This document shows, piece after piece, positions 1-32,500 of a stretch of DNA of 32,500 nt (position 1 is its first letter; every line of letters begins with the position of its first letter). The stretch lies in contig JWZX01003298.1 of assembly GCA_001275005.1 (NCBI GenBank), positions 1-32,500 of the forward strand, read 5' to 3'. The notes under the pieces were generated by a model. That model saw nothing but the letters and a program-made list of their open reading frames with translations, ran no database searches and had not been told where the DNA came from. A program made the translations under genes and the position numbers. Origin of the DNA: Chrysochromulina tobinii (Eukaryota).

Positions 1-465
1 CGCCCCAGCGCGCCTCGCGTAGCACAAGGCCGCCTCTTCCGGCGTCGCGAAGGTGCCGAGATGGATCCCCACGCCATTCTCCTTGACTTTCACCGCGTAC
101 TTGCCATAACTCTTGTACACGCCCTTGAAGCCCGACTCATTAGTCAACGACGGCACCAGCTCGAGCCCCTCTGCCGTCGCGGCCTCTTTGACCTCATCCG
201 CCGAGAGCGGCTGCGGTCCTTCGCCCCTCGCCTGCGCCGCCTCTGCCGCCGCTCGCTCCGCCCCTATGTACCTCGCATAGCACAAGGCCGCCTCCTCCGG
301 CGTCGTGAACACGCCGAGATGGCGCAGCTTGCGATTGTCGCGACTCTGCACCTTGTACCCGCCTCGATGCTTGGCCACGCCTTTAAAGCCCGTCTCACGG
401 CTCGAGGATGGCACCAGCACGAGGCCCTCGGCCGCCGCCACCTCCCTGGCCTGGTCCGGCAGCAT
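1..465 (-). CDS. Tandem AP2-domain repeat protein, paralog of the 1914-5606 gene; partial, runs off the left edge
   Basis: Not in the ORF track; hand-translated from ATG at 465: MLPDQAREVAAAEGLVLVPSSSRETGFKGVAKHRGGYKVQSRDNRKLRHLGVFTTPEEAALCYARYIG...ESGFKGVYKSYGKYAVKVKENGVGSHLGTFATPEEAALCYARRAGA. Open to base 1. Two AP2 units with the F[KR]GV...LGxF.TPEEAAL.Y signature. Confidence 0.9.
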   Translation of the reverse strand, partial: MLPDQAREVAAAEGLVLVPSSSRETGFKGVAKHRGGYKVQSRDNRKLRHLGVFTTPEEAALCYARYIGAERAAAEAAQARGEGPQPLSADEVKEAATAEGLELVPSLTNESGFKGVYKSYGKYAVKVKENGVGIHLGTFATPEEAALCYARRAGA

Positions 466-638
466 CTCGCGACACAAGGAAAGAGAAGTTCGCGAAGGTG
501 TGAATGACAAATTTCCCCTGAGCAATGACCCTTCCTCCTCCTGTAAGAAGACACCGGAGTTAGTAGAGATCCTGCGCGCTCAAGGTGACTTTCGGAGATT
601 TTTGGGTTTGGGGAAATCACAGGCCAGGACGCGCTCGA

Positions 639-888
639 GAGTGCCATCTGAGTGCCATCTGAGTGCCCTCTGAGTGCCTCTTGAGATTGCCATCTGAGTG
701 CCATCTTAGTGCCTCTGAGTGCCTCTTGAGATTGCCATCTGAATGCCATCTGAGTGCCCTCTGAGTGCCTCTTGAGATTGCCATCTGAGTGCCATCTGAG
801 TGCCCTCTGAGTGTCCCCGACCGGAGATTGAACTTGATTGCACTGGATTGCACTTGATTGCTCATCGCTTGATTGCCCTTGATGGCAG
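639..888 (+). repeat. Microsatellite block (11-nt CTGAGTGCCAT/CTGAGTGCCCT units, then 10-nt TTGATTGCAC-like units) ending in a CAG acceptor; probably intron-derived
   Basis: Tandem units are visible at 639-815 and 826-885. The block ends ...GATGGCAG at 888, directly before a coding-like frame starting at 889. Confidence 0.85.
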
Positions 889-1396
889 GTGCTCGCCGAG
901 CGGCGCGCCGCGCTCAAGAGGGAGGAGGGCGCGCGCCGTCGTGGCGAGGCGCGGCTGGCGCAGGAGCTCGCGTTCCGAGATCGTCTCCTCGCCAATCTCG
1001 CCAATCTCGCGGTGGGCAAGCAGGAGGAGGAGCTCTCGAGGGCCGTTGCAATCCAGGGCCATCAAGTGCAATCAAGCGCAATCAAGGAGCTCTCAAGGGC
1101 CGTTGCAATCCAGGGCCATCCCGCCGGCGCTCCGTTCGGCGCTCGACACGACGCCTCCGAGGGGAAGGCATGGAGGGCGCTGATGGAAGGCATCGCGGTC
1201 AAGGTGCGCCGGCCGCTGATGACCCTCGTTGATGAGCCTCGCTGATGAGCCTGATTGCAACGCGTCGTGCTGAGCAGGCTGATGCCGAGGCGCGCCGCTA
1301 TCACGCGGAGCTGCTCGCCGCCCTCGCGGATGCAGAGAACGAGAGGGTGGTGCGGTGGTGCGCCTCAAAAACAAGGCGATGAGCGCCTTTGGGTAG
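889..1396 (+). pseudogene. Orphan 3' fragment of a coiled-coil protein gene (exons 889-1203 and 1278-~1382/1396)
   Basis: VLAERRAALKREEGARRRGEARLAQELAFRDRLL...GIAVK, then a GT-AG intron at 1204-1277, then ADAEARRYHAELLAALADAENERVV. No start exon found. An 8-nt duplication at 1347-1362 appears to shift the C-terminal frame. Confidence 0.5.
1204..1277 (+). other. Predicted 74-nt spliceosomal intron with CTGATGA-type repeat filler
   Basis: AAG|GTGCGC...CTGATGACCCTCGTTGATGAGCCTCGCTGATGAGCCTGATTGC...GAGCAG|GCT. Removing it joins two coding-like segments in phase 0. Confidence 0.6.
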
Positions 1397-1913: not shown

Positions 1914-4900
1914 TCATTTGCAAAGGCGCTGGGGACACGGCCCAGGGACGAGCGTGCGAGCCACCAGCTGCTCCCGTCTGCACGTTGGGCACTTTTTCTC
2001 GAGTCTCTCGATGGGCAGTGGGTCATTGTCTGATTGCCCGGAGCCTTGCAGCCACTGGCTCAAGCAGCGCTTGTGGTAGTAGTTGCCGCAGCAAGGAGTG
2101 TGCCCGCACGCGGCCTCGCCTCGAGAGCTTGCCGCGCTCAAGTCCAGGGCTTCAAGGCAGATGACGCAACGAGCTGCGCCAGGGTCATCGCCGCTCTCGG
2201 CCGTGAGCTGTGGCTGGAAGGGAATCGCTCCCTGCAAGACCACCTCTGCAAAGGCCACTGCAACTGCTAGTCGCTTGCGCGAGGCGTGCTCGGTCGTGGC
2301 AGCTGGTAACGACGAGGGCGAGCCTTGCTGCTTGCGCTGGTCCTCGCGCATCGATGTAAACGCCTCCGCCTGCTCGACTTCGCTTCGAGTGGGCGGGGCG
2401 GGGACTGGCGCCTGGCTTGGAGGACGGTGGGGGGGTCGGGGTCCCGGAATCAGCCAGCCGTCGACGAGGTCGCGAACGTGCCTCGCGTAGCACAAGGCCG
2501 CCTCCTCTGGTGTCGCGAAGGAGCCGAGGTAGTGCGTCCTGCCATTCTCCCAGGTCTCCGTCGTGTACCTTCCAGACCTGTTACACACGGCCTTGAAGCC
2601 CGTCTCACTGCTCGAGGACGGCACCAGCTCGAGCCCCTCGGCCGCTGCGGCCGCCCTGGCCTCGTCCGCTGTGAGCGGCCGCGGCCTTTCGACCCTCGCC
2701 TCAGCCGCCTCAGCAGCCGCTCGCTCCGCCCCAATATGCCTCGCGTAGCATAAGGCCGCCTCCTCCGGCGTCGCGAAGGTGCCGAGGTGGCGCATCTTGC
2801 CATTCTCGGTGGTGTGCGCTTTGTACTTGTAATAAGTCTTGGTCACGCCCTTGAAGCCTGACTCACAGGTCCACGACGGCACGAGCTCGAGCCCCTCGGC
2901 CGCAGCGACTGCCCTGACCTCATCGGCCTCGTCCGCCGTGAGCGGCTGCAAACCTTCGCCTCTCGCCACCGACGCCTCCGCCGCTGCTCGCTTCGCCCCA
3001 GCGTGCCTCGCGTAGCACAAAGCCGCCTCCTCCGGCGTCGCAAAAAAGCCGAGGTGGCGCGCCTTGCCATTCTCCTTGATCCGCCCCATGTACTTGCCAT
3101 GATGCTTGCACACGCCCTTAAAGCCCGTCTCACCGTATGACGACAGCACCAGCTCGAGCCCCTCAGCCGCCGCGGCCGCCCTGGCCTCGTCTGCCGTCAG
3201 CGGCTGCGGCAGTGTGACCCTCACCTCAGCCGCCTGAGCCGCCGCTCGCTCCGCCCCAATGTGCCTCGCGTAGCACAAGGCCGCCTCCTCCGGTGTCGTG
3301 AAGCTGCCCAGGTGACGCTGCATACCCCTCTCCAGAACCCGCGCCTTGTACATGCCATACTTCTTGGTCACGCCCCTGAAACCCGTCTCACTGCTCGAGG
3401 ACGGCACCAGCACGAGCCCCTCGGCCGCCGCGGCCACCCTGGCCTCGTCCGCTGTGAGCGGCCGCGGCCTTTTGCCCCTTGCCTCCGCTGCCTCTGCCAC
3501 CGCTCGCTCCGCCCCAGCGTGCCTCGCGTAGCACAAGGCCGCCTCCTCTGGGGTCGCGAAGGTGCCCAGGTGGCGCAAATTGCCTTTTTCCTCAATCCGC
3601 GCCTGGTACTTGCCATAATGCATGACCACGCCCTTGAAGCCCGACTCGCCGCTCGACGATGGCAATAGCTCGAGCCCCTCGGCTGCCGCGGCTACCCTGG
3701 CCTCATCCGGCGTGAGCTGCTGCGGTCCTTCGACCCTGGCATGTGCCGCCTCTGCCATCGATCGCTCCGCCCCGATGTACCTCGCATAGCGTAAGGCCGC
3801 CTCCTCCGGCGTCGCGAAGGTGCCCAGGTGGCGCTGGCCATTCTCCCTGATGGGCCGAGAGTTGGCATACTCGCTGTCATCAGAGGTCATCAGAGGTCAT
3901 CAGAGGTCATCAGAGGCCATCAGGCTGCACCTGATATGGGCCGAGTACTTGCCACGATGCTTGGTCACTCCTTTGAAGCCCGTCTCATTGCTCGAGGACG
4001 GCACCAGGTCGAGGCCCTCGGCCGCCGCCGCCGCCCTGGCCTCGTCCGCCGTGAGCGGCCTTGGGCCTTCGCCCCTCGCCTGCGCCGCCTCCGCCGCCGC
4101 TCGCTCCGCCCCGATGTACCTTGCGTAGCACAAGGCCGCCTCCTCCGGCGTCGAGAACACGCCGAGGTAGCGATGCTTGCCTTTCTCCTTGATGTGAGCC
4201 TTGTACCTGCCAGAGTGCTTGCGCACGCCCTTGAAGCCCGTCTCACCGCTCGAGGATGGCACTAGCTCGAGGCCCTCGGCCGCCGCGGCCGCCCTGGCCT
4301 CATCCGCCGTGAGCGGCTGCGGTCCTTCGCCCCTCGCCTCCGCCGCCTCCGCCGCCGCTCGCTCCGCCCCAGCGTGCCTCGCGTAGCACAAGGCTGCCTC
4401 CTCTGGCGTCGCAAACATTCCGAGGTTGCGCAGCGGGCCATTCTCCGTGATGCTTGCATTGTACTTGCTACCGTTCCTTGTCACGCCCCTAAACCCCGTC
4501 TCACTGCTCGAGGACGGCACCAGCTCGAGCCTTTCAGTCGCGGCCGCCGCCCTGGCCTCATCCGCTGTGAGTGGCCGCGGACCTTCGCCCCTTGCCTCCG
4601 CCGCCTCCGCCGCCGCTCGCTCCGCCCCAATGCGCCTCGCGTAACACAAGGCCGCCTCCTCTGGGGTCGCGAAGGAGCCGACGTAACGCCGCTTGCCATT
4701 CTCCCAGATCTGCCCCTGATACCTGCCATAATGCTCGGCCACGCCCTTGAAGCCCGTCTCATTGCTCGAGGACGGCACCAGCTCGAGCCCCTCGGCCGCC
4801 GCGGCCGCCCTGGCCTCGTCCGCCGTGAGCGGCCTTGGGCCTTCGCCCCTCGCCTCGGCCGACCCTGCCGCCGCTCGCTTCGCCCCAATGTGCCTCGCAT

Positions 4901-5606
4901 AGCACAATGCCGCCTCTTCCGACGTCGCGAAGGTGCCGAGGTAGCGCTGCGTGCCATTCTCCCTGATGTTTGCGATGTACTTGCTACCGTTCCTTGTTAC
5001 GCCCCTGAAGCCCGTCTCACTATATGACGACGGCACCAGCTCGAGCCCCTCGGCCGCAGCTGCCGCCCTGGCCTCATCCGGCGTGAGTGGCCGCGGCACT
5101 GGGACCCTCGCCTCGGCCGCCTCTGCCGCCGCTCGCTCCGCCCCAGCGCGCCGCGCGTAGGACAAGGCCGCCTCTTCCGGCGTCGCGAAGGTGCCGAGGT
5201 GGATCTGCATGCCATTCTCGGTGATCTGAGCCTTGTACTTGCCTTGATTCATCCGCACGCCCCTGAAGCCTATTTCACCGATTGCAGACGGCACCAGCTC
5301 GAGCCCCTCGGCCGCCGCGGCCGCCCTGGCCTCGTCTGCCGTGAGCGGCCGCGGCGCTGCGACCCTCGCCTCGGCCGCCTCAGCCGCCGCTCGCCCCGCC
5401 CCAATGTGCCTCGCATAGCACAAGGCCGCCTCCTCCGGCGATGGAAACTTGCCGAGGTGGAGCTTCATTCCATTCTCTCGGATCTGCGCCTCGTAGTACT
5501 TGCCATGTTTCTTGCACACGCCCTTGAATCCGGTCTCATTGCTCGACGAGGGCACCAGCTCGAGCCCCTCGGCCGCCGCGGCCGCCCTGACTTCCTCCGG
5601 TAGCAT
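1914..5606 (-). CDS. 12x AP2-domain repeat protein with C-terminal RING finger; join(3931..5606, 1914..3846), ~1202 aa
   Basis: ORFs 3900..5624 and 1914..3890 share a frame and are joined by an 84-nt GT-AG intron. There are twelve ~86-aa units with the AP2 signature (GF[KR]GV...Y.A.I.ENG...LG.F.TPEEAAL.Y). C-terminal CVIC...CCGNYYHKRC...W...CPTC. ATG at 5606 (MLPEEVR) matches the paralog start (MLPDQAR). Confidence 0.92.
2480..5600 (-). repeat. Coding tandem repeat, ~258-nt unit x12 (AP2 domain plus Ala/Glu-rich linker)
   Basis: The motif gcaccagctcgagccc and close variants recur at ~258-nt spacing (e.g. 5552, 5291, 5033, 4775). Confidence 0.95.
3847..3930 (-). other. 84-nt spliceosomal intron in AP2 repeat 7
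   Basis: ATCAG|GTGCAG...(CTGATGACCT)n...CCCATCAG|GGAGAAT. Splicing restores I-R-E-N-G as in sister repeats, while the unspliced frame contains TGA stops. Confidence 0.92.
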
Positions 5607-6139
5607 CGTGTCGCGACAACGCAAAGGATGATGCGCCCTTGCTCGAGAGACGAGCGCTGCGAGCGTCCGTTACTCGAAAACTTTTCTAAAAAAAGGTCAG
5701 CAAATCCGCTCTGAAAGTGTGGAGTCCTGTCTGTTACGCGATTCTGTACACTCTGCCATTTCGATCCAGAACAACGTCTGAGCGCGGTCCTCGAGTGTAT
5801 AGGTTCCCAATACGGCTCTAGTTTCCGGCGTTGAGTTGGCAGTTGTTATTTAGGGTACGAAGGCTTCCTTCTCCTACACCGACCCGGTCCGGTGTCCCCT
5901 GGTGTGCGCTTTGCACGCTCATCGACGAACAAATACAGAAATACCTTGTCGTGCTTCGGCGTGCACCGACCTGCGACCACCCGGACACTCCGCTCTCCGG
6001 ACGGCGGGCGGGGAGCGTGCTCGGTGCTGTGCGCTCTGGCTCTCTCCATGATACCGTTCTGCGCACTGCTCTCATGCGACCATCCATTCGATCCATTCAC
6101 GTTCTCCAATCACACTCTCGCAATGCCCATTCATCCAGA

Positions 6140-9100
6140 TCAATTGCCTAATTTGGGTGCAAGGAGTAGCCAGCCAGCTCGCCACTCATCAAGATCGATC
6201 ACGCCGTTACCATCAGTATCGAGAGAGGTCACCATGTCCTCGATCACCTCTGTGGGTACGTCGCCTCGGCCGCGCAGGAAGTCGCCCATCGCAGCCAAAG
6301 GGATCGTGTCACTTCCTGCGGCGACCATGTTGAACAGGGAATCTGCCACGATGGTGTCGTAGTGCGCCGTCGGCAGCGGCGCCTTGGGCGACGTTGGCAG
6401 CGGAGCCTCCTGTGGAACCTCCTTTGCTGTTGCTTCGACCTGTGCTGCTGCTTCAACCTGTGCTACTGCTGCAGCGATGGCGGAGCGTACGAGCCGAATG
6501 GCATCCGCCATCATCGCATCCGCATCACGAGCCGCCTGCACCGCGGCTGCCGCTTCAACGGCCGCCTCGACGGCCGCCGCGGCCACCGCCGCGCCTTGGG
6601 CGAGGGCCTGCTGTGAACACAGCTGGGCCGCCCTTGACTTCCTCTCCGCGCGCCCGCGCATCAGGGCCTGCATCAACGCCGCCGCATGCGCCTCCACACG
6701 CAGCTGCTTGGCCGCTGCGGATCGGCCGGTGTGCCCACGGTAGGAGGCCTGCATGATCGTGGCGGCCGCGCGGCGCGCCTTGAGCTCGTTGCGATAGCCG
6801 TTGGCGACGAAGCTCGAGCGCACGCGCGCCTGGATGGCAATCGTGGCCTTCTCGGCCGCTTCTTGCTCCGCCTTCGCCGCCGCCTCATCCTCCTCCGATG
6901 CCGCCGGTGAGGCTTTGGACGCCACGATTGCCTGCGCTGACTCAACCTCGGGCTCGACCTCGGGCAATACCTCGGGCTCGACCTTCGGCATGACCTTCGG
7001 CTCGACGGCAGCGATGCGCGCGTGCCTGCCAGACCTGCCATCCTGTTGTTGCCCTCGCTGCTCGGCAAGCTCGGAGCTCAACTCATCAATGAGCTTCTGT
7101 AGCTCGTGCGGATCGTGCGGGACCACGACAGCACGATCCGAGCCGCGAGCCGATGCCGCCACCGCGAGCCTTGACGTGCGAGATCGAGCGCCGCCCCGAG
7201 CGTGTGGGCCCTCCTTGGATGCGCCCGGTACGGCGCCGCCGATCGGAGGCAAACGAGTAGACGATTCCAAATTTGGTCGTGCAGCTGAGGAGCCGCGTGC
7301 TGCGGCCCGGCGGATACCCTTCCGCGTCAGCTCTGGGGCCGAGGTGGAGACGGACAGCGCTGACTGCCTTGTATGAGCGACTGCCACAGCCAGAGTTGGC
7401 ACCTTCTCCTCCTCGCCCGCCTCGCCCAGCGCACCCGCCTCGCCAACTGAGGCCACCTTGCCGGTCATCAGGAATGTGTTGAGCAAAGGATGGTGCGCAA
7501 GGCGTACAAGGAGCCACCGGGCGCCCGAGCCCCCCTCAGCCGCCAGCGAGTCGTCGCTGCCGTCCCCCTCCGTCGCCTCCGAGACCTCTGCCGGCTCCAT
7601 CTCTGTCTCGACTCGCCGGGTGCGACCTCCTTTGGCGGCGCCTCTGTTGGCGCCCCTGCCGCCCGATGGCACTCCTTCCACAACGGCCGTTGGCGCCCAG
7701 CTGGAACCGGAGGCTGTTTGCGCAGTGCGCTCGCTGGCAGGGGGGATCAGCGGCAGAGAGCCACGTGAACCAGTCGGCGGAGCGCCCGACGTCGCAAACT
7801 CCTCTCCTTCCCACGTCGGCACTTTCGAAGGCACCTTTGTCGGCACCGTTGTCGGCGGCTCATCATCCCAAGGATTCTCAATAGGATTCTCGAGCGCGAC
7901 TCTTCGTCGTCGATTCGAGGCGGCAGGATTCGAGGCGGCAGCGTCGTGCGTAGCGGCGGCTGTGCCCTCGCCCGGCACCTCCGGACTCGCACCAACAATG
8001 CCGCCCGCACCGACGGGCGCACTCACCGGCGCGCCAACGGCTGCAAAGGCCATCCCGGCGACGGCCCCCTCGGCGGCCGTCTTGCGTCCTCCTGCCTTGC
8101 GATGAGGCGCCGACGGCTCCGGAGGCGGTTGCACGGCCGCCAAGCGCGCGAGCGCGCGCGGCGACCGATCGAAGATGTCGCGTAGCAGCCGCGTGACCTT
8201 TGACTGTGTCGGGATAGGCTTTAGAGGCGGTAGTACAAGGGCCGACCTGGATGAGGCGAGGGTGCCGCTGCCGGGGGCTGAGGGGCCCACGATCACATCC
8301 GACGGCGACGGCAACGCGCTGGCTGTTGGGCCTGGCACCAAGACCGATGCCAAGAGCAGCGACGTGGCGGTGGTGGCGGTGACGTGTGCGCGTGATGGGG
8401 ACGCTATTCCAGAAGCAGCTGCCGATGCCGACGCCACCTCGCTGTCAATGTTGTCATCGGCAACCGATGTCGCGCCACCGCTCCCCACCGCCACCGCCGC
8501 GTGCGCATGTGCGGCGCCATCGGTGTGTACATGTCGCGGCTCGAGCTCCCCGCGCTGCAGCCGCGCATTCAAGCGCTGGGCTTCCAGCTGCCTTGCGCGC
8601 AGCTTGTCGCGCGCCTCCCGATCTTTTTCGAGCTCAGCCGAGATCGAGAATGACGAAGCCGGTGAGTCCTTGAGCCAAATGGCGGAGCCCGAGGCGGCGA
8701 GCAGCTGCTTACGCCTCTCGACCGACGCAAGCGAGCGCACCGGCGGCATGATCGCCGCTGCGTGGTGCGAGCCTGCGGCCACGAGAAGGGCGGGTCCGCC
8801 GAGGGCTACTGGTACAGCCTCCGCCATCGAGGGTACATGGGGGCCCTGACCGCACTGGCCGTCGCCATTGTCGCCCATGCAAAGCACCATACCGCCTAGC
8901 GTCTGCACCACCGTGTAGCTCTCACCGCACCCGATCCAGACCACGGGACGTGCCGGTAGGCACAGCGATGGGCAGCGGAGCGGCGTGCTCACGGCGCGTA
9001 CGGCGCTCGCTCCACCGCCGAGGCCGAGCTGTCCGTGACCGTTCGCACCCCATACGAAGACGTCGGAGCAAGCGCCACGCACTGCGAGGGCCGCGGAGTG

Positions 9101-9992
9101 TGCACCGCCCGCCGCCACCATCACCACAGCTTGCCCGTGCAAAGCGCCCATGACGACGCGCGGCTCGGAGCAACGGAAATCGTCGAGGCTCGGCAGCGCG
9201 CTCGGGACGACGCCGAGCCTGCCGCTGGCTACTAGGCCAAAGGCGAGCACGGTGTGATCTGCGAGCAGCACGAGCACATGCCTGGAGCTCGACGCCAGCT
9301 GCACGCACCCAGCGGAGCGCGCCCGCAGCGCCGCCACCTCCGTCGGCGTGAACCTATCGAGCTTGCCCGCCAGCCGTCCCCTCTTCGGCGTCGCGTCACC
9401 GTGACCGAGGCAGCCGCCGGCGCCCTCGCCCCAGCTGTAGACGTGCGCACGCTCATCACCCGCGCGCCGAAAGCTGCCCAGCGAGTGCGCCGCACCCGCC
9501 GCCGCGTCCAGCCACTCACCCTCGTCCGACGGGCGAGGCACCTCGGCAGGCTTGGTGACGGCGCTCGTGTGGCCGAGCCCGAGCTGACCGCTGCTGTTGC
9601 GGCCCCATGCAAAGGCGGCGCCCGCCGCGGAGAGTGCGATTGCATGGCGCGCGCCGCAAGCCACGCGCAGAATGTCGTGCTTTAGCAGCGCCCGGTGCGG
9701 CCTGGAGCACTCGCCGAGGCGTGGAGCCATCCGTGTTCCTCGCGTCGGCGAGCTCGCCATCCCCGTTGCTGCCGCACACGTACGTGGCGCCACGCGACGT
9801 GACCAGGACCGTAAACGTCTCGCCGGTGGCAATCAATACCGCGCGCTCGGCTGGAGGCAAGCCAAGGGCCGGTTGAGGCACCGTCTGCAGTGCCGGCTGT
9901 GGCTTGATCTCCTCGCCGTCAGCGTCGATCCGAATGCCCAGCTGGCTGTGAACGCCGCGGCCCCAGGCCATGGCTGTGGCATTGGTCGGCAT
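6140..9992 (-). CDS. RCC1-repeat protein with IQ motifs and C-terminal EF-hand(s); one apparent +1 frameshift near 9692
   Basis: RCC1 repeats (AWGRNSSGQLG, VWGANGHGQLG, CMGDNGDGQCG). The first repeats (AWGRGVHSQLG, VCGSNGDGEL) lie in the ORF 9516..9998 frame, from ATG 9992. Three IQ-like motifs (IQARVRS, MQASYRG, MQALMRG). EF loop DTDGNGVIDLDE. Confidence 0.85.
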
Positions 9993-10184: not shown

Positions 10185-11288
10185 TCACGAGGTGCTGCGC
10201 GGGCGCAGACCCGCGCTGCCGGTTCCCGTCTCGGCCGCGCGCCGCTCGAGATGCAAGCGCATCATACGCGCCGTACCCATATGGCGGCCAGCCTCCGCGA
10301 GGGCTAGGCAGCTGCGGCCGGCGCCGTCCCTGCTCTCAGGATCCGCGCCCGCATCGAGCAGTGCCTTGACGCACAGGCTGCGCACAGGGCGAGGAGCGAG
10401 GTGGCGGCGGCAGTGAGTACGCAGGGAGGAGAGGCGGGGAGGAGAGGAGAGGGTCGCAAGGGCACCATCACCACAGGGCGCACACGCAGGGCGGACGACG
10501 CGCCGAGCGGAGCCGAGGAAGCGCGGGGCATCGACGATGTCGTCTCTCTGTGCGACTCGCGGGGCTTGCCACACACGACTCGCGGGGCTTGCCACGCACC
10601 CATGGCCGAGGGCCGCGACGTGATGCAGCGGCGTGCGCAGCTCAGAGTCGACGACGAGAGAATCGGCGCCGTGGTCGAGAAGCAGACGGACGATGTTCGC
10701 GTGGCCGGCGCGCGCGGCATGATGCAGCGCCGTCGAGCCATCCACCGCGAGCGCAGCGTCTACGACGCATCGATCGGTCGCGAGCCACGTGCGCAGTGTC
10801 GCCACGTCGGCATTGGCCGCCGCGGTCGAGATGCTCGGATGAAGCACCCTCTCGTTGCCATTGCCGTGACTGGTGCTGCTGCCACCCTCCACGTCGAATA
10901 CTGGCATTAAATTGCGACTATTCTTCGTTCGTTTGCTCGGACTGGAGTACGTTTTCGAGGAGCGGCGCACACACAAGCAGTAAATGAGCACGAGCAGAAC
11001 GATGACCGCGCCGCCGGCCACAGCATAGACCACATGCGGATTCGAGTACGACAAGCCGGCGGACGAGGTTCCCTTGATGGCGGCCAGGTGCTGTTCGGCC
11101 AAGCGGCCAACGTGCTTTACGTGCTCGCTGCTCTTCTTCACCACCTCCTGCAGGCCCTCGCGAGCCCGCTCCACGTGCTCGCTGCTCTTCTTCACCACCT
11201 CCTGCAGGCCCTCGCGAGCCCGCTCCACGTGCTCGCTACTCTTCTTCACCACCTCCTCCAGGCCCACGCGCGCCCGCTCCGACGCCAT
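10185..11288 (-). CDS. Single-pass membrane ankyrin-repeat protein; join(10600..11288, 10185..10377), ~293 aa
   Basis: TM segment VVYAVAGGAVIVLLVLIYCLCV. Ankyrin motifs GSTALHHAARAGHANIVRLLLDHGAD and RTPLHHVAALGHG|LCVKALLDAGADP; the latter is restored by removing a GT-AG intron at 10378-10599. Confidence 0.85.
   Translation of the reverse strand: MASERARVGLEEVVKKSSEHVERAREGLQEVVKKSSEHVERAREGLQEVVKKSSEHVKHVGRLAEQHLAAIKGTSSAGLSYSNPHVVYAVAGGAVIVLLVLIYCLCVRRSSKTYSSPSKRTKNSRNLMPVFDVEGGSSTSHGNGNERVLHPSISTAAANADVATLRTWLATDRCVVDAALAVDGSTALHHAARAGHANIVRLLLDHGADSLVVDSELRTPLHHVAALGHGCVASPASRVWQAPRVAQRDDIVDAPRFLGSARRVVRPACAPCGDGALATLSSPPRLSSLRTHCRRHLAPRPVRSLCVKALLDAGADPESRDGAGRSCLALAEAGRHMGTARMMRLHLERRAAETGTGSAGLRPRSTS
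10378..10599 (-). other. 222-nt intron (multiple of 3, no in-frame stop)
   Basis: CATGG|GTGCGT...pyrimidine-rich tract...GCGCAG|CCTG, interrupting an ankyrin repeat. Confidence 0.8.
11118..11279 (-). repeat. 54-nt coding tandem repeat x3 (ERAREGLQEVVKKSSEHV)
   Basis: Three near-identical copies at the N-terminus of the ankyrin protein. Confidence 0.9.
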
Positions 11289-11451
11289 GAAAATGCAAGT
11301 TTGAGCGAATCACAGAAGGTGATAAGGGACGAGGTGTTGGGGGTGCCTCGGCAGAGTGGGATCTTCGAACTGTAGTACTCCGAAACTGCGGAAAGTAACG
11401 CATTCCCTGTGAATGAGCTGACCTTCACGAAGGACGTGCATCTTTCCGATC
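11289..11451. promoter_or_regulatory. Short divergent intergenic region, probable bidirectional promoter
   Basis: 163 nt between head-to-head ATGs (11288 on -, 11452 on +). No specific motif identified. Confidence 0.4.
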
Positions 11452-12477: not shown

Positions 12478-13449
12478 TTACTCGGCCGGCAGGGCTCCGC
12501 CCTTGCGCGTGCACATGTATGCGACCTCATCGAAGCGCTTGACGCCCTTCGCTTTCCAGGGCTCTTTGTCCTTCTCGTCGACCACGCTGAGCTTCTGGAT
12601 CTCGAAGGCGCTGCCGAGGAGGCGGCGGACCTCGGACTCGTCGACTGAGTGCGGCGGACCAAAGGCGGGCTCGTGCTCCACCACCACGAGCAGCAGCTTG
12701 CCTCCCGGTCTCAGCTGCTCGCTCAGCACCGCGGCGTACCGGGGCCGATCGCTGGGAGCGACCGCTACGAGGCCACCGCGGTCGAAGGCGCAGTCGAACT
12801 CCGGGAAGCCCCATTGACTGGCGGCGGGCCGGTCAAAGGCGAGGAAGTCGCCCTGCACCGCGAATAGAAAGGGCGCGGGTTGGTACGTCATCGATCGTTT
12901 CTCCGACTTGCTAAGCTGCTCCGCCGCCACTTTCTGCATCCAGTTAGGCTGGCCCACGCGCAGCCAGAGTCTCGCGTCGGGTGGGCGGCCACCCTCGATC
13001 TCCTCGCCGTACTCGCTCAGCAGTCGGTCGATGGCCTCGGGCACCGCCTCGACGCCAACCACCTGGTGGCCGCGCCGTGCGATGCACCCGAGGTCGACGC
13101 TGGCGCCGCACAGCGGAAACAGAATGCTCCGCTGCGTCTCGCCGTCGTCACCGAGCCAATCGTTGAGGTGCGTCATCAGCACTGGGTGCGGGTTCTCAAG
13201 GTGCCAGCCCAGCATTTTGTTCAACCAGCGATCGCGCCAGTAGGCAAATTTTTCGTCCACAGGAAAATCAAGGCTGTTCTTGTTCATCGGCTCTGTCCCG
13301 ATCAAATAGTTCTTTTGTTGAGGCTCTCGATGATCGCTCGTAGGTGGCGGCATGCCGACGGTGCGACGCGCCAAATACTGGCCTGCAAAGTAGCTGCCGC
13401 CACCAACGGCAAGGAGTGCAGCAGCATTTCGAGCGGTGGCGACGGCCAT
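12478..13449 (-). CDS. Thiopurine S-methyltransferase (TPMT)-family SAM methyltransferase, ~323 aa
   Basis: YWRDRW...GWH...PHPVL, ILFPLCGASVDL, GHQVVGVE, GDFL, FDCAFDRGGLVA...R.RY and GPPHSV match TPMT motifs. Likely start is ATG 13449 (MAVATAR...) followed by a hydrophobic segment. Confidence 0.9.
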   Translation of the reverse strand: MAVATARNAAALLAVGGGSYFAGQYLARRTVGMPPPTSDHREPQQKNYLIGTEPMNKNSLDFPVDEKFAYWRDRWLNKMLGWHLENPHPVLMTHLNDWLGDDGETQRSILFPLCGASVDLGCIARRGHQVVGVEAVPEAIDRLLSEYGEEIEGGRPPDARLWLRVGQPNWMQKVAAEQLSKSEKRSMTYQPAPFLFAVQGDFLAFDRPAASQWGFPEFDCAFDRGGLVAVAPSDRPRYAAVLSEQLRPGGKLLLVVVEHEPAFGPPHSVDESEVRRLLGSAFEIQKLSVVDEKDKEPWKAKGVKRFDEVAYMCTRKGGALPAE

Positions 13450-13706
13450 TCCTCGTGGTTCGGCTCGCTCACGCGTCGCGCCGCGGACAGCCCAAGACTT
13501 CTTGCGAGCTATGAAACCAGCATGCAAAGGGGAAAGGGGGGAGGGGGAATTTTGAGGAAGGTGCGAGATCGATCCGTATGAGCCCACGCACCGAAAAGGG
13601 ATCAGCCCCTCCGCCCCCTGAGCATCTATGGGGGAACTCGGGATTGTGGTGCACTCACTACACGATGCGGTTACGAGTGGTACCTTGCTCGACTCACGCA
13701 CACTGC

Positions 13707-14858
13707 GTGTATCACATACACTGTACCTGTTCTTGCTGCAGCCACCTTGGACACAACATATGACGCTACAAGTACCATGCGCGGTGTGGCTGCCGTCAAG
13801 GGCCAGCTGCGACCTTTTCCACAGCCTTCGCCCCTGCTCCCCTGTCGCAGCCGCCGCCCTCGCAGCCGCCTCTGGGTGGCGGCCTTGTGTCAGACTTCAG
13901 GCTTTGGTTCACAGCTGCTGCACATAGCCTTTCTTCTCCTGCATGGCGAGCCCTGGATCGTCTTGATCTGCTCACACCGGTCGCCCACCTGAACCGGGGG
14001 CATTGGGCACAGTAGGATGGTACGCACAGGGCGTGGGCTTGGAGAGGGGAACCCAGAAGCTAAGGACCTTCGACATCAGGGATTTGGCCGCGGACAACAT
14101 GTCCGGCCTCTGCGTGAAGTCTTTGCACGCCGACGGGCTCGGGGAGGGCAAGGTGCGCCTCGTCGACGGCGATGGTGGTGCAGCCGCGCCGGGCGCACGC
14201 CCAGCGCAGCAGCGGCACGTCGCGCACGAGGCTCTCGGGCGCGACGAAGAGCAGCTGCGCTATGCCGCGCGATGGTGGTGCAGTCGCGCCAGGCGCACGC
14301 CCAGCGCAGCAGCGGCACGTTGCGCACGAGGCTCTCGGGCGCGACGAAGAGCAGCTGCGCCGCGCCCGCGGCATAGCGCATCGCCACGTGCGGCCGCACG
14401 CCAAAGAGCAGATGCTGCATGGGCGACGACTCGCTCGGAAGCGTGGTTGTGACCGCGGCGTCAACAATGCAAGCTTCCGAGCCGATACGCTCTTCAACGT
14501 AGAGGACGACCTCCGGGATGGCCAACACCTGTAACAGTGAGGGGATTGTCTTACTGCAAGCAGGGACAAGGAGGTAAGGGAGATAGATATGAGTGGCGTA
14601 CCTGATGTTTCACTTGACACCAAACCAAAACCTTGTCAAGCACAAAGTCCTTGCGTCCATTGACAGGCCCTGATGTTTATGGCGTGGCTTCTTCTTCACC
14701 ATCTTATCGACGTGCTCACGCAATGCTGGTGAAATACTGAGAGCTGGCAAGGGCATCGGCGACGGAGCCGGCAAGGGCATCGGCGACGGCGAATTGAATT
14801 CAAACTCTTCTTGGTGTATCACATAGTGACTGTACCTGTTCTTGCTGCAGCCACCTTG
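13707..14858. repeat. Dispersed direct repeat pair: 30-nt exact core at 13720-13749 and 14829-14858, plus 12-nt upstream match
   Basis: actgtacctgttcttgctgcagccaccttg occurs twice, each copy preceded by gtgtatcacata. Confidence 0.9.
14060..14528 (-). pseudogene. RecQ-like SF2 helicase fragment disrupted by a 100-nt tandem duplication
   Basis: AQLLFVAPESL (motif Ib-like) occurs twice and TIAVDEAH (motif II) once. The two copies are in different frames. AG acceptor just upstream of 14528. No other helicase motifs seen. Confidence 0.65.
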
Positions 14859-17201: not shown

Positions 17202-18578
17202 ATGGCCGACCCAAGCACCCCGAACGCCACCCTCGGCGCGCTCGCCGCACACTATCTGGCTCCTTGGCGCACCGCCGGAGTGTCCCAGGAGCAGGTTGAC
17301 GCGGCGCACCTGCACTGGGCCGATTATCGAGACGCGCAGTGGGGCGGAGCCGTGCCACTGGGCACGTCGAGGAATCGGCTGCTCCGGGTCAACATCCTTG
17401 GCGGCCGGCTCTACTACGTGAGCTGTGTGGGCCAGCGCTCGACGGCGCGCAAGGTGCGGCAGCGAGCCATCCTAGCGCTGATCCGGGCCACCCTCGCCGT
17501 CCACGAGCTACCCGACGTAGACCTGGTGCTCAGCCTGTCGGACCGGCCGACGGTGCCGCGCCACGCCGTCATGGACGGCTCGCCGCCGCTGGTATTTGGC
17601 TACGTGACGACGGCCTGGCACTGGTCAGTGCCCTTTCCGTACGCTACGTTTGAGCCGCAGCGCTGGGCGCCGCTCTACCGGCAGATCGGCCACCACCCAG
17701 CCCTCGAGGTACGAAAGCCGCAGGCGGTCTGGCGCGGCTCGTGCAACTCGCTGTGCGACATGCTGAAGGGAATGAGGACTGGCGGGGGCGGGGGCGCGAG
17801 CGGCGCTGATCAAAGCGGCGGCACCGGCGCCGGCGGCGCCAGCGGCGGCCGCGGCGGCGGCTGCTCGATTGATCTACTTGACCGGCTGCGCTTGCTGCGA
17901 CACGCGGCACGCTGCCCAGAGCTGACCGACGTCGCGCTCACGAAGGAGCACGTGCACTGCCGCGGCTTCCCCGCGCGTGCCCCTCTGACGCTGCGCGAGC
18001 ACGCGCAGTTCGCGTATCTGATCCACGTCGATGGCAACGGCTTCTCGGGCCGTTTGGAGGAATTGCTCTCCTTAGGAGGCGTGGTGCTCAAAGAGGAGTC
18101 GCCTTTTGAGAGCTGGTACTACCCGCTATTGAGGGCGCATGAGCACGTGGTGCCGCTCGCACGCAACCTGAGCACCCTGTGCGACTCGCTGCGTGCATTG
18201 CGCGAGGAGCCTCGCCGCACCGCCGCGCTCGCTGCCGCCGCCCAGCGCTTCGCAACTGCCTTTCTCGCGCCGGAGAGCGTGATAGGGTACGTAGCTGCGT
18301 TGGTGCGAGGGTATGCCACGCTGCAGCGCTTCCGGCCGCGGCGTCACCCAATGGCCAAGGAGTGGGCAGACGCAGAGACCATGGTCAGCAGGCCGACGGC
18401 GGCCGCGACGACGGACGCCACGCTGCATTCCGCCTCCTTCGGCCATGCCTCCGGCTTCCCCTTCTCCGTCGCCCTGCACACCGGAGGGAGCAATAGTGGG
18501 CACTTTTGCCCGCCGGCGGACGTGTCGTGCTGCAAGCGCCATCCACGGGCGTGCCGACGGCGACGAGGGACGCGTTAA
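17202..18578 (+). CDS. Glycosyltransferase family 90 (CAP10/POGLUT-like) protein
   Basis: LPDVDLVLSLSDRP, AVWRGS and EHAQFAYLIHVDGNGFSGRL...VVLK...ESWYYPLLRAHEHVVP. Confidence 0.9.
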   Translation: MADPSTPNATLGALAAHYLAPWRTAGVSQEQVDAAHLHWADYRDAQWGGAVPLGTSRNRLLRVNILGGRLYYVSCVGQRSTARKVRQRAILALIRATLAVHELPDVDLVLSLSDRPTVPRHAVMDGSPPLVFGYVTTAWHWSVPFPYATFEPQRWAPLYRQIGHHPALEVRKPQAVWRGSCNSLCDMLKGMRTGGGGGASGADQSGGTGAGGASGGRGGGCSIDLLDRLRLLRHAARCPELTDVALTKEHVHCRGFPARAPLTLREHAQFAYLIHVDGNGFSGRLEELLSLGGVVLKEESPFESWYYPLLRAHEHVVPLARNLSTLCDSLRALREEPRRTAALAAAAQRFATAFLAPESVIGYVAALVRGYATLQRFRPRRHPMAKEWADAETMVSRPTAAATTDATLHSASFGHASGFPFSVALHTGGSNSGHFCPPADVSCCKRHPRACRRRRGTR

Positions 18579-24383: not shown

Positions 24384-27300
24384 TCAACGTCCATTCACAG
24401 AGGACCGCAACATGACGGCGAGGACATCAAGCACAATCCACCCCCACAGCAAGGAGAATCCTAGCGCCTCGCCCCAGGCATCCGCCAGCGTCGCGTCGTC
24501 GCCGAATCGCGATTGACCTATCCACAGGGACAAGACGCCGCAGGCAAAGAGGATCGTTGTGGCGACAACCCAGGGAAAGACCCTCCAGAAGCGCACGGAG
24601 CTCGACCAGACGCGTGCCCACGCGCGCCACCCATGCCAACCTCGACCGCACCTCGAGCGTCGCTCAGGTGCGCGGGCGGCGCCCCCGATGATGACCTCGG
24701 CCTCTGGCGATCGTCGTGGCCACCGGGGAGAGATGCACAGAGTCGAACGGAGGCCATTGTAAGTCAGCAGGCAACAGACTGCCCCCAGCAACGACGCACA
24801 AGCGCATAGAGACTGGAGCCAAGACGGCACGACCAGCCATCGACGCCACCGAGGATGTGCTCGAGATGAGGCAGCAGGCTTCGCTGAGGTGGGCTCGGCC
24901 CCACCGTCGCCTGCGCCCGCACTCATCAAGGCGCCCAGGAGGGCACTCCGTGTTTCGTCAGACACGCTGCCGAGGAATTCGATGAGGTGACACACGTCCT
25001 CTTCGTGAGCGTAGTCCCGCCAGTCAAAGAACGCTCGGGAGATGGCACAGATGGTCTGAAAGGACGAGGCCGTCGGGTCGGGCTCGTCGATGAGCACAAG
25101 CTGTGTCGACGGCACATGCGTGCCTGCGATCCCTTGTGCACGGATCGGAGCCTGATGGTGCTCACGCTTGTGAGGACCTATGCGCGCATGGCCCAGCCAA
25201 CCAGCTGTTGGTGGTGAGGGCGGGGGAGAGAGCGGCGGGGCAGAGGGTGGCGGGGTAGAGGTCAGCGCGGCAGAGGGCGGCGGTTGCGCGGCGGCGAGGG
25301 CAGCTGAAGGTGGTCGCCGTTTCAAAGGTGGAATTTCGTCAACCGTGTCCGCGCGGCCATCGTTGCGGCCATCCCCGCGGCTCGAACGCCCGCGCGCCCG
25401 CGATTGCAGACGCGTCGCCGCTGCCTCCTTCTCGTCCATCCCCGCGCCACCCTCATCCGCCTGATTGCCACCCTCATCCGCCTGATTGCCACCCTCATCC
25501 GCCTGATTTGGGGCGTCATCCGCCTGATTTGGGGCGTCAACCGCCTGATTGCCACCCTCATCCGCCTGATTTGGGGCGGCGGTCCTCGCATCTCTGCTAC
25601 TGGCAAGCCGATGCGCGTCGGCAAAGTGTTGCGCGTCGGCAAAGTGCTGCACGTTGGCAAGGCAGCCGCGCGCAAACGGATCAAGTCTCGGGTCGTTGAG
25701 CTCGATGATCGCCTGCAGCCGCTCGAGCCCACCACAGCGCTCTAGCTGCTCGACACACGTGATCTCGGTGCACAGGTTCTGAAGGGCACCTAGGGCGTAC
25801 ACGAGGGTCAGCCGGTCCTGATCATCAGCGAAGAGGTGCGGCAACACGAGGCTGAAGGCGCCCGCCGCCCTGAGTAGCGCCTTCGTCTCCTCTGCGTGCG
25901 GGTCGACAGCCTCGCATGCAAGGTCGGCCACGAGCATGAGGGCCATCCGATGCACCTGATGAAGGAGGCAATCGTGAGTCATCAGTGATCATCAGAGGTC
26001 ATCAGCCACGAGCATGAGGGCCATTCGATGCACCTCGGCCGAGGGGCTTCCAAGCAGCCCGACGATGAGCTCGACGCCGCCCGTGGCGCGCAGGCCCTCG
26101 CACAGCGCGATCGCATGGTCGCCGTAGCTGCCGTTGGCAAGCAGAGCGAGCTGGTGCAGCGCCTTGCCCTTGTCCGCCTCGCTGCTGCTGCTCAGCCGAA
26201 GAACTCCGACGAGACCCATCAGCTCCCGCGCGGGCGTCAGCACGGGGGGTAGCTCACGCTTGTGAGGACCTATGCGCGCATGGCCCAGCCAACCAGCTGT
26301 TGATGGTGAGGGCGGGAGAGAGAGCGGCGGGGCAGAGGGTGGCGGGGTAGAGGGCAGCGCGGCAGAGGGCGGCGGTTGCGCGGCGGCGAGGGCAGCTGAA
26401 GGTGGTCGCCGTTTCAAAGTCGCGAGCTGCTCGAGTGCGGACCATGGTCGATTGCGGACCAAAGACGCACGAATTCGTGCCGACCAGGGTCGCACCGCAG
26501 CCGCAGTGGTCTCAGGCTCTAGGGGGGTTCGTGGTCGAGAAGTGGGGGGGCTGTTCCGTGAAGGGAAGGTAGCCGGAGGATTGAGAGGGCTGGGCGTCTC
26601 GGACTCGCTCAGCCCCACAGGGTGCAGCTCCTCGATCTGGGGGTAGCTCGATCTGGGTGTAGCTCGATCTGGGTGTAGCTCCTCGATCTGGCCTGCGTCC
26701 TCTTGATCTTGCGACTCTTCGAGCCGCTTGAGAGGAGTGCGAGGGACGCCCCCTCCACCATCTCCATCCGCATGCAATGGCATCATGCCTGATGCCGATG
26801 CCTGGTCCTTCGCCCAAGCCACTGACCTGGCAGCATCCTGCTTGATCAACTGCGTTGGCGCTTGATCGACGACGAGCGATGCGTGCTCCCGTTCGGCCTC
26901 CTCAACATGTACTAAGGCAAGCGGCCTTGCCTGATCAGGATACCGTTCGGCCTCCTCCCGTACGGCCTGCAGCCGCGTGATGCCGAGCATCCGAGGGCGC
27001 ATGGCGAGCAGTGCCGCACGGACGTGCTCGACAAGCAGGTCCTCGACGACCTGCCGCCAATCGGAGAGCGCCGCGAGCACACTGGCGTGGTCAAAGGCCA
27101 GGTGCAGCGCGGCCGTTGCCCTCAGCTGCGAACCCTTGTGCTTCTCCACGCTGTCCATGACTGCTACAGCCGCCATGTGGCTGATCCGCCTCTCTCGCCC
27201 AAAGAGCTCATCGAGGACTCTTGCCATCAGCAGCGCAATGGACGCTGAGATGAGCCCAGAGAGCATCGTTTGGAGCGTCGTGATGCTTTCGTGTGTGAGA

Positions 27301-32255: not shown

Positions 32256-32500
32256 TGTTCTCAAACAACGACAACAACCGCCGGAAAAAGTTGGCAAAGT
32301 TTTCGTAAGCATGTATGCATGCAATGACAAAACCCCGCTTGAGACTGTTCGGGTTGTGATGGTCGTCGCGTGTAGGTGCGGGGCGACATGGACAGCGCGG
32401 ATATACTTACTCACCCAAGCACTACCCTTGCTACCCGACACCGGCACCAGGGGAGGGCGAGCCGGGACAGACACGGTCACACCGCCACGCACGTCCCCCT

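What the first reader, a model, noticed from the sequence alone, without database searches (positions are those of the whole stretch)
1914..5606. 12-unit AP2 array with hypervariable DNA-contact residues fused to a RING: a candidate modular (TALE/poly-zinc-finger-like) DNA reader
Seen: across 12 units the linker and helix (LTADEARAAAAAEGLELVPSSS.ETGF.GV ... F.TPEEAALCYAR) are nearly invariant, but the beta-sheet segment differs in every unit: CKKHGKYYEAQIRENGMKLH, RMNQGKYKAQITENGMQIH, TRNGSKYIANIRENGTQRY, AEHYGRYQGQIWENGKRRY, TRNGSKYNASITENGPLRN, RKHSGRYKAHIKEKGKHRY, TKHRGKYSAHIRENGQRH, VMHYGKYQARIEEKGNLRH, TKKYGMYKARVLERGMQRH, CKHHGKYMGRIKENGKARH, TKTYYKYKAHTTENGKMRH, CNRSGRYTTETWENGRTHY. In strand 2 (Y-x-A-x-I-x) the Y/A/I positions are mostly kept while the alternating x positions vary. 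Established: AP2/ERF domains read DNA with the exposed face of this three-stranded sheet (residues after GV, in A-x-I-x and before LG); plant AP2 factors have 1-2 domains and ApiAP2s only a few. Inference: diversifying selection on specificity residues in a fixed-pitch array with a ubiquitin-ligase effector, analogous to KRAB-ZNF or TALE arrays and possibly aimed at viral or mobile DNA.
Basis: partly seen in the sequence, partly recalled or inferred. Interest (0 to 1): 0.88.

Follow-up and report, generated by a model that had tools for sequence, protein, structure and literature searches.

The report
Fast-evolving AP2 array DNA reader
An algal gene strings together twelve copies of the AP2 domain, keeps their framework almost unchanged while the positions predicted to touch DNA evolve faster than neutral and whole copies move between genes, so it likely works as a mix-and-match DNA reader like animal zinc-finger arrays but built from a different fold.

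Summary
A minus-strand gene (5606-1914, one RNA-supported 84-nt intron) encodes 12 AP2 units of about 86 aa and a FANCL-like RING. It matches a named Chrysochromulina tobinii protein and belongs to a large haptophyte family (Chrysochromulina, Phaeocystis, Emiliania).

Over 67 distinct units, codons equivalent to the DNA-facing residues of AtERF1 have dN/dS 1.7-2.6, against about 0.1 in the helix. A site model blind to structure finds 9 of 77 sites above 1, and 7 are in my 8-site contact set. For this gene's 12 units alone the signal is weaker (1.5-2.4, not always significant). Units are copied between paralogues, and family members carry RING, SET, chromo, PHD, CXXC, MBD or Tudor domains.

Best reading: a tandem-zinc-finger-like modular DNA reader.

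Corrections: a rigid TALE-like pitch is not supported; the window's RING end comes from a neighbouring paralogue, and this gene's own RING usually has Cys for the conserved Trp; long AP2 arrays also occur outside haptophytes. DNA binding, ligase activity and a viral or mobile target are untested.

The parts
3931..5606 (-). Gene A exon 1: start codon, AP2 units 1-6 and the first half of unit 7
   Evidence: ORF and translation; RNA contigs of four runs lie on it, none in the bin 5648-5788
3847..3930 (-). 84-nt GT..AG intron inside strand 2 of unit 7, with in-frame stops and a 10-nt repeat
   Evidence: skipped in one polyA RNA contig
1914..3846 (-). Gene A exon 2: rest of unit 7, units 8-12, low-complexity spacer, RING, stop
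2478..5606 (-). Array of 12 units, 258-nt period. Approximate starts: 5606, 5348, 5090, 4832, 4574, 4316, 4058, 3719, 3461, 3203, 2945, 2678. Each unit is an N-terminal arm helix, a three-stranded sheet, a long helix and a Pro/Gly linker
   Evidence: tandem repeat finder, unit table, alignment, AlphaFold model of units 3-5
1980..2168 (-). C4HC3-type, FANCL-like RING finger
   Evidence: Pfam zf-RING_2 E 7e-6, just under the curated cut-off; best PDB sequence hit FANCL, E 6.8e-5; dN/dS 0.26 over 10 copies
2064..2200 (-). Interval in which the window switches from gene A sequence to paralogue gene C sequence; about 8.7 kb present in the L001/L002 contig is absent here (assembly collapse or real deletion)
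   Evidence: gene A's own tail in L001 is covered by RNA of run X2
1..465 (-). Start of paralogue gene B: two AP2 units, running off the window; 6 units plus RING in L002 and L003

Best explanation
The gene encodes twelve AP2 units whose framework is under purifying selection and whose predicted DNA-facing residues are under positive selection, so it likely acts as a modular, sequence-specific DNA reader that would bring a RING ubiquitin-ligase domain to chosen loci. Shown: the array, the fold match, expression, the selection pattern, unit exchange between paralogues, and fusion of the same unit to many chromatin and ubiquitin domains. Inferred: each unit lays its sheet in the major groove as AtERF1 does and reads its own short site; flexible linkers let subsets of units bind spaced sites rather than one contiguous code; new specificities arise by point change and unit swapping; the effector marks chromatin or nearby proteins. 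The driver is most likely conflict with fast-changing DNA (viruses, Polinton-like elements, transposons), but that last step has no direct evidence (about 0.4 if the rest holds).
For: Fold: the unit profile hits AtERF1 (1gcc, E 1.3e-5), WRI1, ERF096 and TEM1; the model aligns to 1gcc at rmsd 1.1 A over 49 columns. Selection, 67 units: dN/dS at contact codons 1.94-2.64 (LRT 60-111), helix 0.07-0.14; 2.2-2.6 on a sheet-only tree and 1.74 (LRT 8.9) with a free synonymous rate; 2.28 with class-specific codon frequencies. Blind site model: 9 of 77 sites above 1, of which 7 are in the 8-site set. Twelve null simulations with and without recombination gave 0.88-1.26 and LRT at most 9.0. In 22 disjoint close pairs, contact pN was 0.143 against pooled pS 0.067. 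The backbone-contact equivalents stay basic: R147 in 67 of 67, K156 in 59 of 67. The same alternating variability appears in 358 Phaeocystis-type units. Unit exchange: unit 1 recurs at 99% nucleotide identity inside another gene (L004) and unit 4 in gene B. Of 35 family proteins scanned (chosen by me), 19 carry chromatin or DNA-binding domains and 11 a RING or ubiquitin domain.
Against: No binding data. For the 12 units alone two of the tests are not significant (sheet-only tree p 0.099; free rate LRT 1.8). Position +19 (W172 equivalent) is not under positive selection (about 0.3). 22 of 41 changed contact codons in close pairs differ at 2-3 bases, so short conversion tracts or multi-base mutations may inflate dN/dS. 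AP2 domains can bind RNA (PMC11652630; related chains appear). This gene's own RING has lost the conserved Trp in 9 of 10 entries. Unit swaps seen in metagenome assemblies may partly be chimeras.
Confidence: 0.65

Rival explanations
1. The array reads RNA (as PPR or PUF repeats do), and the RING ubiquitinates proteins on the bound RNA.
For: Toxoplasma mitoribosomal AP2 proteins bind rRNA (PMC11652630, passages) and appear among structural matches at Z 4.4-5.1; the sheets are basic (net +2 to +8).
Against: Partner domains are chromatin and DNA modules; no RRM, KH or dsRBD was seen in 35 proteins, and one DEAD-type helicase. The closest solved sequence relatives are plant DNA-binding AP2s.
Confidence: 0.1
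2. The variable sheet face binds foreign proteins, making this a substrate receptor fused to an E3 ligase (like positively selected antiviral RING proteins).
For: A RING fused to a positively selected repeat surface; the RING is under purifying selection family-wide.
Against: Basic backbone-contact positions are kept; contact positions are rich in R, H, Y, K, Q, S, T; many members carry SET, chromo or CXXC domains, or no RING.
Confidence: 0.1
3. The sheet face has lost its function and drifts, and conversion or multi-base mutation makes it look selected.
For: Many multi-base codon changes; weak significance for the 12 units alone; lower GC3 at contact codons (0.67 against 0.73-0.89).
Against: Interleaved non-contact sheet codons show no raised synonymous rate (3.5 against 3.9-4.5); null simulations do not reach the observed values; orthologous units keep 58 of 72 contact residues between two versions of the gene; the pattern recurs in Phaeocystis and Emiliania.
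Confidence: 0.08
4. The family works like PRDM9 or a centromere-drive factor: arrays chase the host's own eroding binding sites, and SET-bearing members mark recombination sites.
For: Three members join 3-6 units to a SET domain; unit number and order vary between versions.
Against: This gene has no SET domain. Its units are old (synonymous distance about 0.4-0.5), not a homogenised minisatellite, and the array is nearly identical in most assemblies of one type.
Confidence: 0.07

Closest known systems
Plant AP2/ERF factors (AtERF1 1GCC, WRI1, TEM1)
   Same: Three-stranded sheet plus helix, matched by sequence and by model.
   Different: 12 units instead of usually 1-2 (recalled); an added N-terminal arm helix and a longer C-terminal helix; the conserved Arg/Trp contact set is replaced by a different set in each unit.
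ApiAP2 factors of Apicomplexa
   Same: Several AP2 domains per protein that can bind different motifs (PMC2965767, passages).
   Different: ApiAP2s have one to three domains and are described as highly conserved across Plasmodium; here 2-13 units recur as a regular repeat, are exchanged between genes and are positively selected.
Emiliania huxleyi AP2/ERF expansion
   Same: Same family: E. huxleyi proteins with 7-9 matching stretches carry the arm motif. The paper counts 58 AP2-type and 99 ERF-type proteins (PMC4827209, passages).
   Different: The passages I read give counts only: no array anatomy, selection, shuffling or effector fusions.
KRAB-zinc-finger proteins and PRDM9
   Same: Tandem modules with conserved scaffold and fast contact residues, unit gain, loss and swap, gene clusters, and a chromatin effector (search listing and abstract starts; otherwise recalled).
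   Different: Unrelated fold; 86-aa units on long linkers instead of 28-aa fingers reading contiguous triplets; no KRAB domain; many different effectors.
TAL effectors
   Same: Near-identical repeats with variable specificity residues (recalled).
   Different: About 8 variable positions per unit instead of 2; no rigid superhelix predicted; no one-unit-one-base code expected.
HNH-AP2 endonucleases of phages
   Same: The only two viral-collection hits are HNH proteins with a C-terminal AP2-like domain; they score 51.9 and 35.2 bits with the unit profile, against 28.4 for AtERF1.
   Different: Single AP2 with a nuclease and no arm motif match. The hits were found with a unit motif, so the score comparison is biased; descent was not tested with a tree.

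Membership tests
AP2/ERF domain superfamily | Sequence match to the AP2 profile | tested here: met
   PF00847 46.9 bits against cut-off 33.3 for the first half; 28.5 (below) for the second; PDB hits
AP2/ERF domain superfamily | Three-stranded antiparallel sheet packed on one helix | tested here: met
   model pLDDT 89; 1gcc rmsd 1.1 A over 49 columns; 2gcc Z 5.6, rmsd 2.1, 50 aligned
AP2/ERF domain superfamily | Sequence-specific DNA binding by the sheet | not testable with these tools
   only indirect: basic backbone positions kept
Plant ERF/DREB (GCC-box or DRE binders) | Conserved R150, R152, R170, W172 contact set | tested here: not met
   these positions vary from unit to unit; no Trp at the W172 position in 67 units
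ApiAP2 | One to three AP2 domains in an apicomplexan protein | tested here: not met
   12 units; haptophyte names
KRAB-ZNF / PRDM9 | C2H2 finger array with KRAB or PR/SET domain | tested here: not met
   no such Pfam hit in this protein
KRAB-ZNF / PRDM9 (works like) | Positive selection on contact residues of a conserved tandem module | tested here: met
   (family level; marginal for this gene alone)
KRAB-ZNF / PRDM9 (works like) | Unit gain, loss and exchange between alleles and paralogues | tested here: met
   short-read chimeras not excluded
KRAB-ZNF (works like) | Binds and silences mobile elements | not testable with these tools
   no target data; no whole genome held
TAL effectors | Rigid superhelix of 34-aa repeats, one base per repeat | tested here: not met
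   86-aa AP2 units; pTM 0.49
RING E3 ligases | Eight zinc ligands in a RING pattern | tested here: met
   Cys/His pattern kept in 10 copies, one Cys missing in the most distant; all 18 PDB hits are RING proteins or SLX1
RING E3 ligases | E2-binding Trp of the central helix (role recalled) | tested here: inconclusive
   Trp in the window and in paralogues; Cys in 9 of 10 entries of this gene's own cluster and in RNA run X2
RING E3 ligases | Ubiquitin transfer activity | not testable with these tools
   needs an assay

The most novel reading that the evidence does not exclude
Haptophyte algae built their own counterpart of the animal KRAB-zinc-finger system from an AP2 domain of mobile-endonuclease origin: a large family of genes with shuffled, positively selected AP2 arrays that recognise invading viral and mobile DNA through a learnable residue-to-base code and deliver ubiquitin and chromatin effectors. 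It would be a new class of programmable DNA-binding repeat beside zinc fingers and TALEs.
Probability: 0.3. Interest if true: 0.92.

Novelty: new variant of a known kind. Interest (0 to 1): 0.76.

Why it matters
The AP2 domain is known as a conserved reader present in one to three copies. Here it is used as an exchangeable repeat whose contact face evolves under positive selection, the pattern that marks zinc-finger arrays in genetic conflict. It gives an explanation for the reported AP2 expansion in Emiliania and points to a candidate genome-defence or fast-evolving regulatory system in bloom-forming algae. It also supplies several hundred natural variants on one scaffold, which makes an AP2 recognition code directly testable.

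Tried and rejected
No whole genome is held, so copies per genome were not counted.
The RING model was too poor to use (pLDDT 45).
The ESM Atlas did not complete.
The Fisher test paired units off by one and is void; it was redone. The Phaeocystis pattern matched nothing and was fixed. The L004-L007 BLAST printed nothing at my thresholds, so those two are treated as versions of one gene only from shared units, not from flanks.
Viral collection: 2 of 108 pattern matches were relatives, both phage HNH proteins, no arrays. Prokaryote genomes: 1 of 384, a 27-residue match outside the sheet, discarded.
Rejected: scaffold uniform because of recent duplication (helix dS 0.49 with dN 0.04); two separate genes (intron spliced); PHD instead of RING (RING profiles and PDB hits score better).
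Earlier findings: three look-ups showed nothing.
Literature: searches listed no paper on these arrays by title or abstract start; most listed papers were not opened. The 2005 ApiAP2 discovery paper was not held, and subscription papers on algal transcription factors were not searchable, so an earlier mention of multi-AP2 repeats cannot be excluded. No supplements were read.

Full report
Observation. The minus strand holds two in-frame ORFs (3900-5669 and 1914-3896) interrupted by a 10-nt repeat. Removing 3930-3847 (84 nt, GT..AG) gives 1202 aa with 12 units 85-89 aa apart and a RING. One contig of polyA run X2 skips these 84 bases. RNA contigs of four runs from four studies cover 23-27 of 30 bins, with none in the bins 1700-1840 and 5648-5788; paralogues contribute to that depth. 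The protein matches P0139, named Ctob_005404 of Chrysochromulina tobinii, whose model splices unit 7 differently.

Fold. A profile of 12 units (11 of this gene, 1 of gene B) hits AtERF1, WRI1, ERF096 and TEM1. An AlphaFold model of units 3-5 (71 sequences) has pLDDT 89 and pTM 0.49. Each unit is an arm helix, three strands, a helix of about 24 residues and a linker with pLDDT near 70. It aligns to 1gcc at 1.1 A over 49 columns; VIA-align ranks WRI1 (Z 5.9) and AtERF1 (Z 5.6) first, with Toxoplasma mitoribosome chains tied just below. Low pTM does not prove flexibility, but a rigid pitch has no support.

Contact positions. The alignment maps positions +1, +3, +4, +8, +10, +12, +17 and +19 after the GV motif to AtERF1 R150, R152, W154, A158, E160, R162, R170 and W172. 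R150, R152, R170 and W172 are named as binding residues in PMC3602543 (passages and section 19). The other four, the numbering and the backbone contacts R147, K156, T175 and Y186 are recalled; a search for them found nothing. I chose this set after seeing the alignment, so it is not fully blind. The site model below is.

Selection. From the window and 23 loci, 119 units were extracted, 67 distinct in DNA; units with altered anchor motifs were missed, gappy columns and the tail were dropped, 77 codons were kept, and the set includes near-identical alleles. Counting gives, for the 12 units, dN 0.89 and dS 0.64 at contact codons, and dN 0.04 and dS 0.49 in the helix. My own codon-likelihood code gives contact dN/dS of 1.55 (p 0.015), 1.88 and 2.38 for the 12 units and 1.94-2.64 (LRT 60-111) for the 67, with helix 0.06-0.14 and arm 0.12-0.28. 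On a tree from the sheet alone the values are 1.48 (p 0.099) and 1.83 (p 0.01) for 12 units and 2.2-2.6 for 59 sheets. With a free synonymous rate they are 1.75 (not significant) and 1.74 (LRT 8.9). A mixture model picks 9 of 77 sites above 1 in the 67 units: +1, +3, +4, +8, +10, +12, +17, the T175 equivalent and one arm site; +19 is not picked (2dlnL 97 held on a wider grid). Twelve null simulations gave 0.88-1.26 and LRT at most 9.0. In 22 disjoint pairs chosen on non-contact codons, contact pN is 0.143, other pN 0.027, pooled pS 0.067 and contact pS 0.096; 22 of 41 changed contact codons differ at more than one base, against 20 of 136 elsewhere. Positive selection is well supported for the family and marginal for this gene alone.

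Family. The second half finds 278 proteins of similar length and 27 longer ones. A divergent member finds 762, many named Phaeocystis antarctica. The unit profile finds 237 clusters at E up to 1e-30, including Emiliania huxleyi proteins with 7-9 stretches that share the arm motif. In 358 Phaeocystis-type units from 111 proteins the same alternate positions vary and the inward ones do not. Arrays of 7-14 AP2 stretches without the arm motif occur in Telonema, Festuca and unnamed proteins, so long AP2 arrays are not unique to haptophytes. Of 35 proteins scanned (25 of the 27 longer hits and 10 picked for their listed domains), 10 have a RING, 1 ubiquitin, 19 chromatin or DNA modules (SET, chromo, PHD, CXXC, MBD, Tudor, SAP, CW, Myb, homeodomain, MORC-type ATPase), 1 a helicase, 1 DnaJ and 3 nothing further.

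Shuffling. Unit 1 recurs at 99% nucleotide identity as unit 5 of the gene in L004, and inside P0224; unit 4's sheet recurs in gene B. L004 and L005 share eight units and differ in the middle ones (11 against 10 units). A second version of this gene lacks unit 12, and one entry also lacks unit 9. Between the two versions, 14 of 72 contact and 56 of 555 other residues differ in 9 unit pairs (p 0.027; units 1, 7 and 12 left out), so each unit's contact set is inherited fairly stably. Most assemblies of one version have the same array. These are short-read assemblies and some swaps may be chimeric; several recur in more than one entry.

RING and assembly. The RING resembles FANCL (E 6.8e-5) and has dN/dS 0.26. 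The window follows gene A of L001 down to 2201 and gene C from 2200 onward; the L001/L002 contig has about 8.7 kb more, with gene A's own tail, another gene and gene C. That tail is covered by RNA of X2. In gene A's own RING the helix Trp is Cys in 9 of 10 entries and in X2, which may weaken ligase activity (role of the Trp recalled). Collapse and real deletion were not told apart.

Mechanism and rivals. The most likely reading is a modular DNA reader with an effector, working like tandem zinc-finger proteins but on long linkers, so probably binding spaced sites with subsets of units (inference; 0.65). Rivals are an RNA reader (0.10; AP2-RNA binding in PMC11652630, passages), a protein-binding E3 receptor (0.10), drift with conversion artefacts (0.08) and a PRDM9-like role (0.07). 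Chrysochromulina parva hosts a giant virus and Polinton-like viruses (PMC12220804, passages), which makes a defence role plausible but does not show it.

Known versus new. The AP2 expansion in E. huxleyi is in print as counts (PMC4827209, passages). ApiAP2s have one to three domains with distinct motifs (PMC2965767, passages). Searches listed nothing that describes these arrays, their selection or their shuffling; subscription literature and supplements were not seen. Verdict: a real feature, a new variant of a known domain that behaves like a zinc-finger array; interest 0.76.

Noticed in passing
window 3847-3930: The intron's last ~14 bases repeat the exon bases just before its 5' end, and only 1 of 12 units has it: it looks like an intron gained by insertion with a target duplication that supplies the acceptor. 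Its inner repeat draws very high RNA depth, so similar elements are probably common in the genome.
   Followed up: partly
window 2064-2200 against L001:3840-4440 and L002: About 8.7 kb missing relative to a 99.8% identical contig, including a gene with a weak adaptor-mu-like hit (E 0.029) and most of paralogue C.
   Followed up: partly
P0107, P0240, P0246: Family members that join 3-6 AP2 units to a SET domain, some with chromo, CXXC, CW or UBA: a PRDM9-like architecture on a different fold.
   Followed up: no
P0409, P0372, P0402, P0414: AP2 arrays of 7-14 stretches without the haptophyte arm motif (unnamed, Telonema subtile, Festuca glaucescens); P0409 shows the same alternating variability. 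Possibly independent origins of AP2 arrays.
   Followed up: partly
L024:4686-5204 and L025:4656-5204: Phage HNH endonuclease genes with a C-terminal AP2-like domain very close to the unit core.
   Followed up: partly
L012:11077-13000: A long tandem repeat with a period of about 111 nt next to a family member.
   Followed up: no
window 6140-9832, 10185-11309, 12478-13896, 17202-18578, 25992-32498: Ordinary neighbours: RCC1-repeat protein with EF-hand/IQ hints, ankyrin protein, thiopurine methyltransferase, family 90 glycosyltransferase, and a large REJ-domain protein.
   Followed up: no
window 580-1380: Plus-strand stretch with intron-like repeats between genes A/C and B; possibly a gene fragment.
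   Followed up: no
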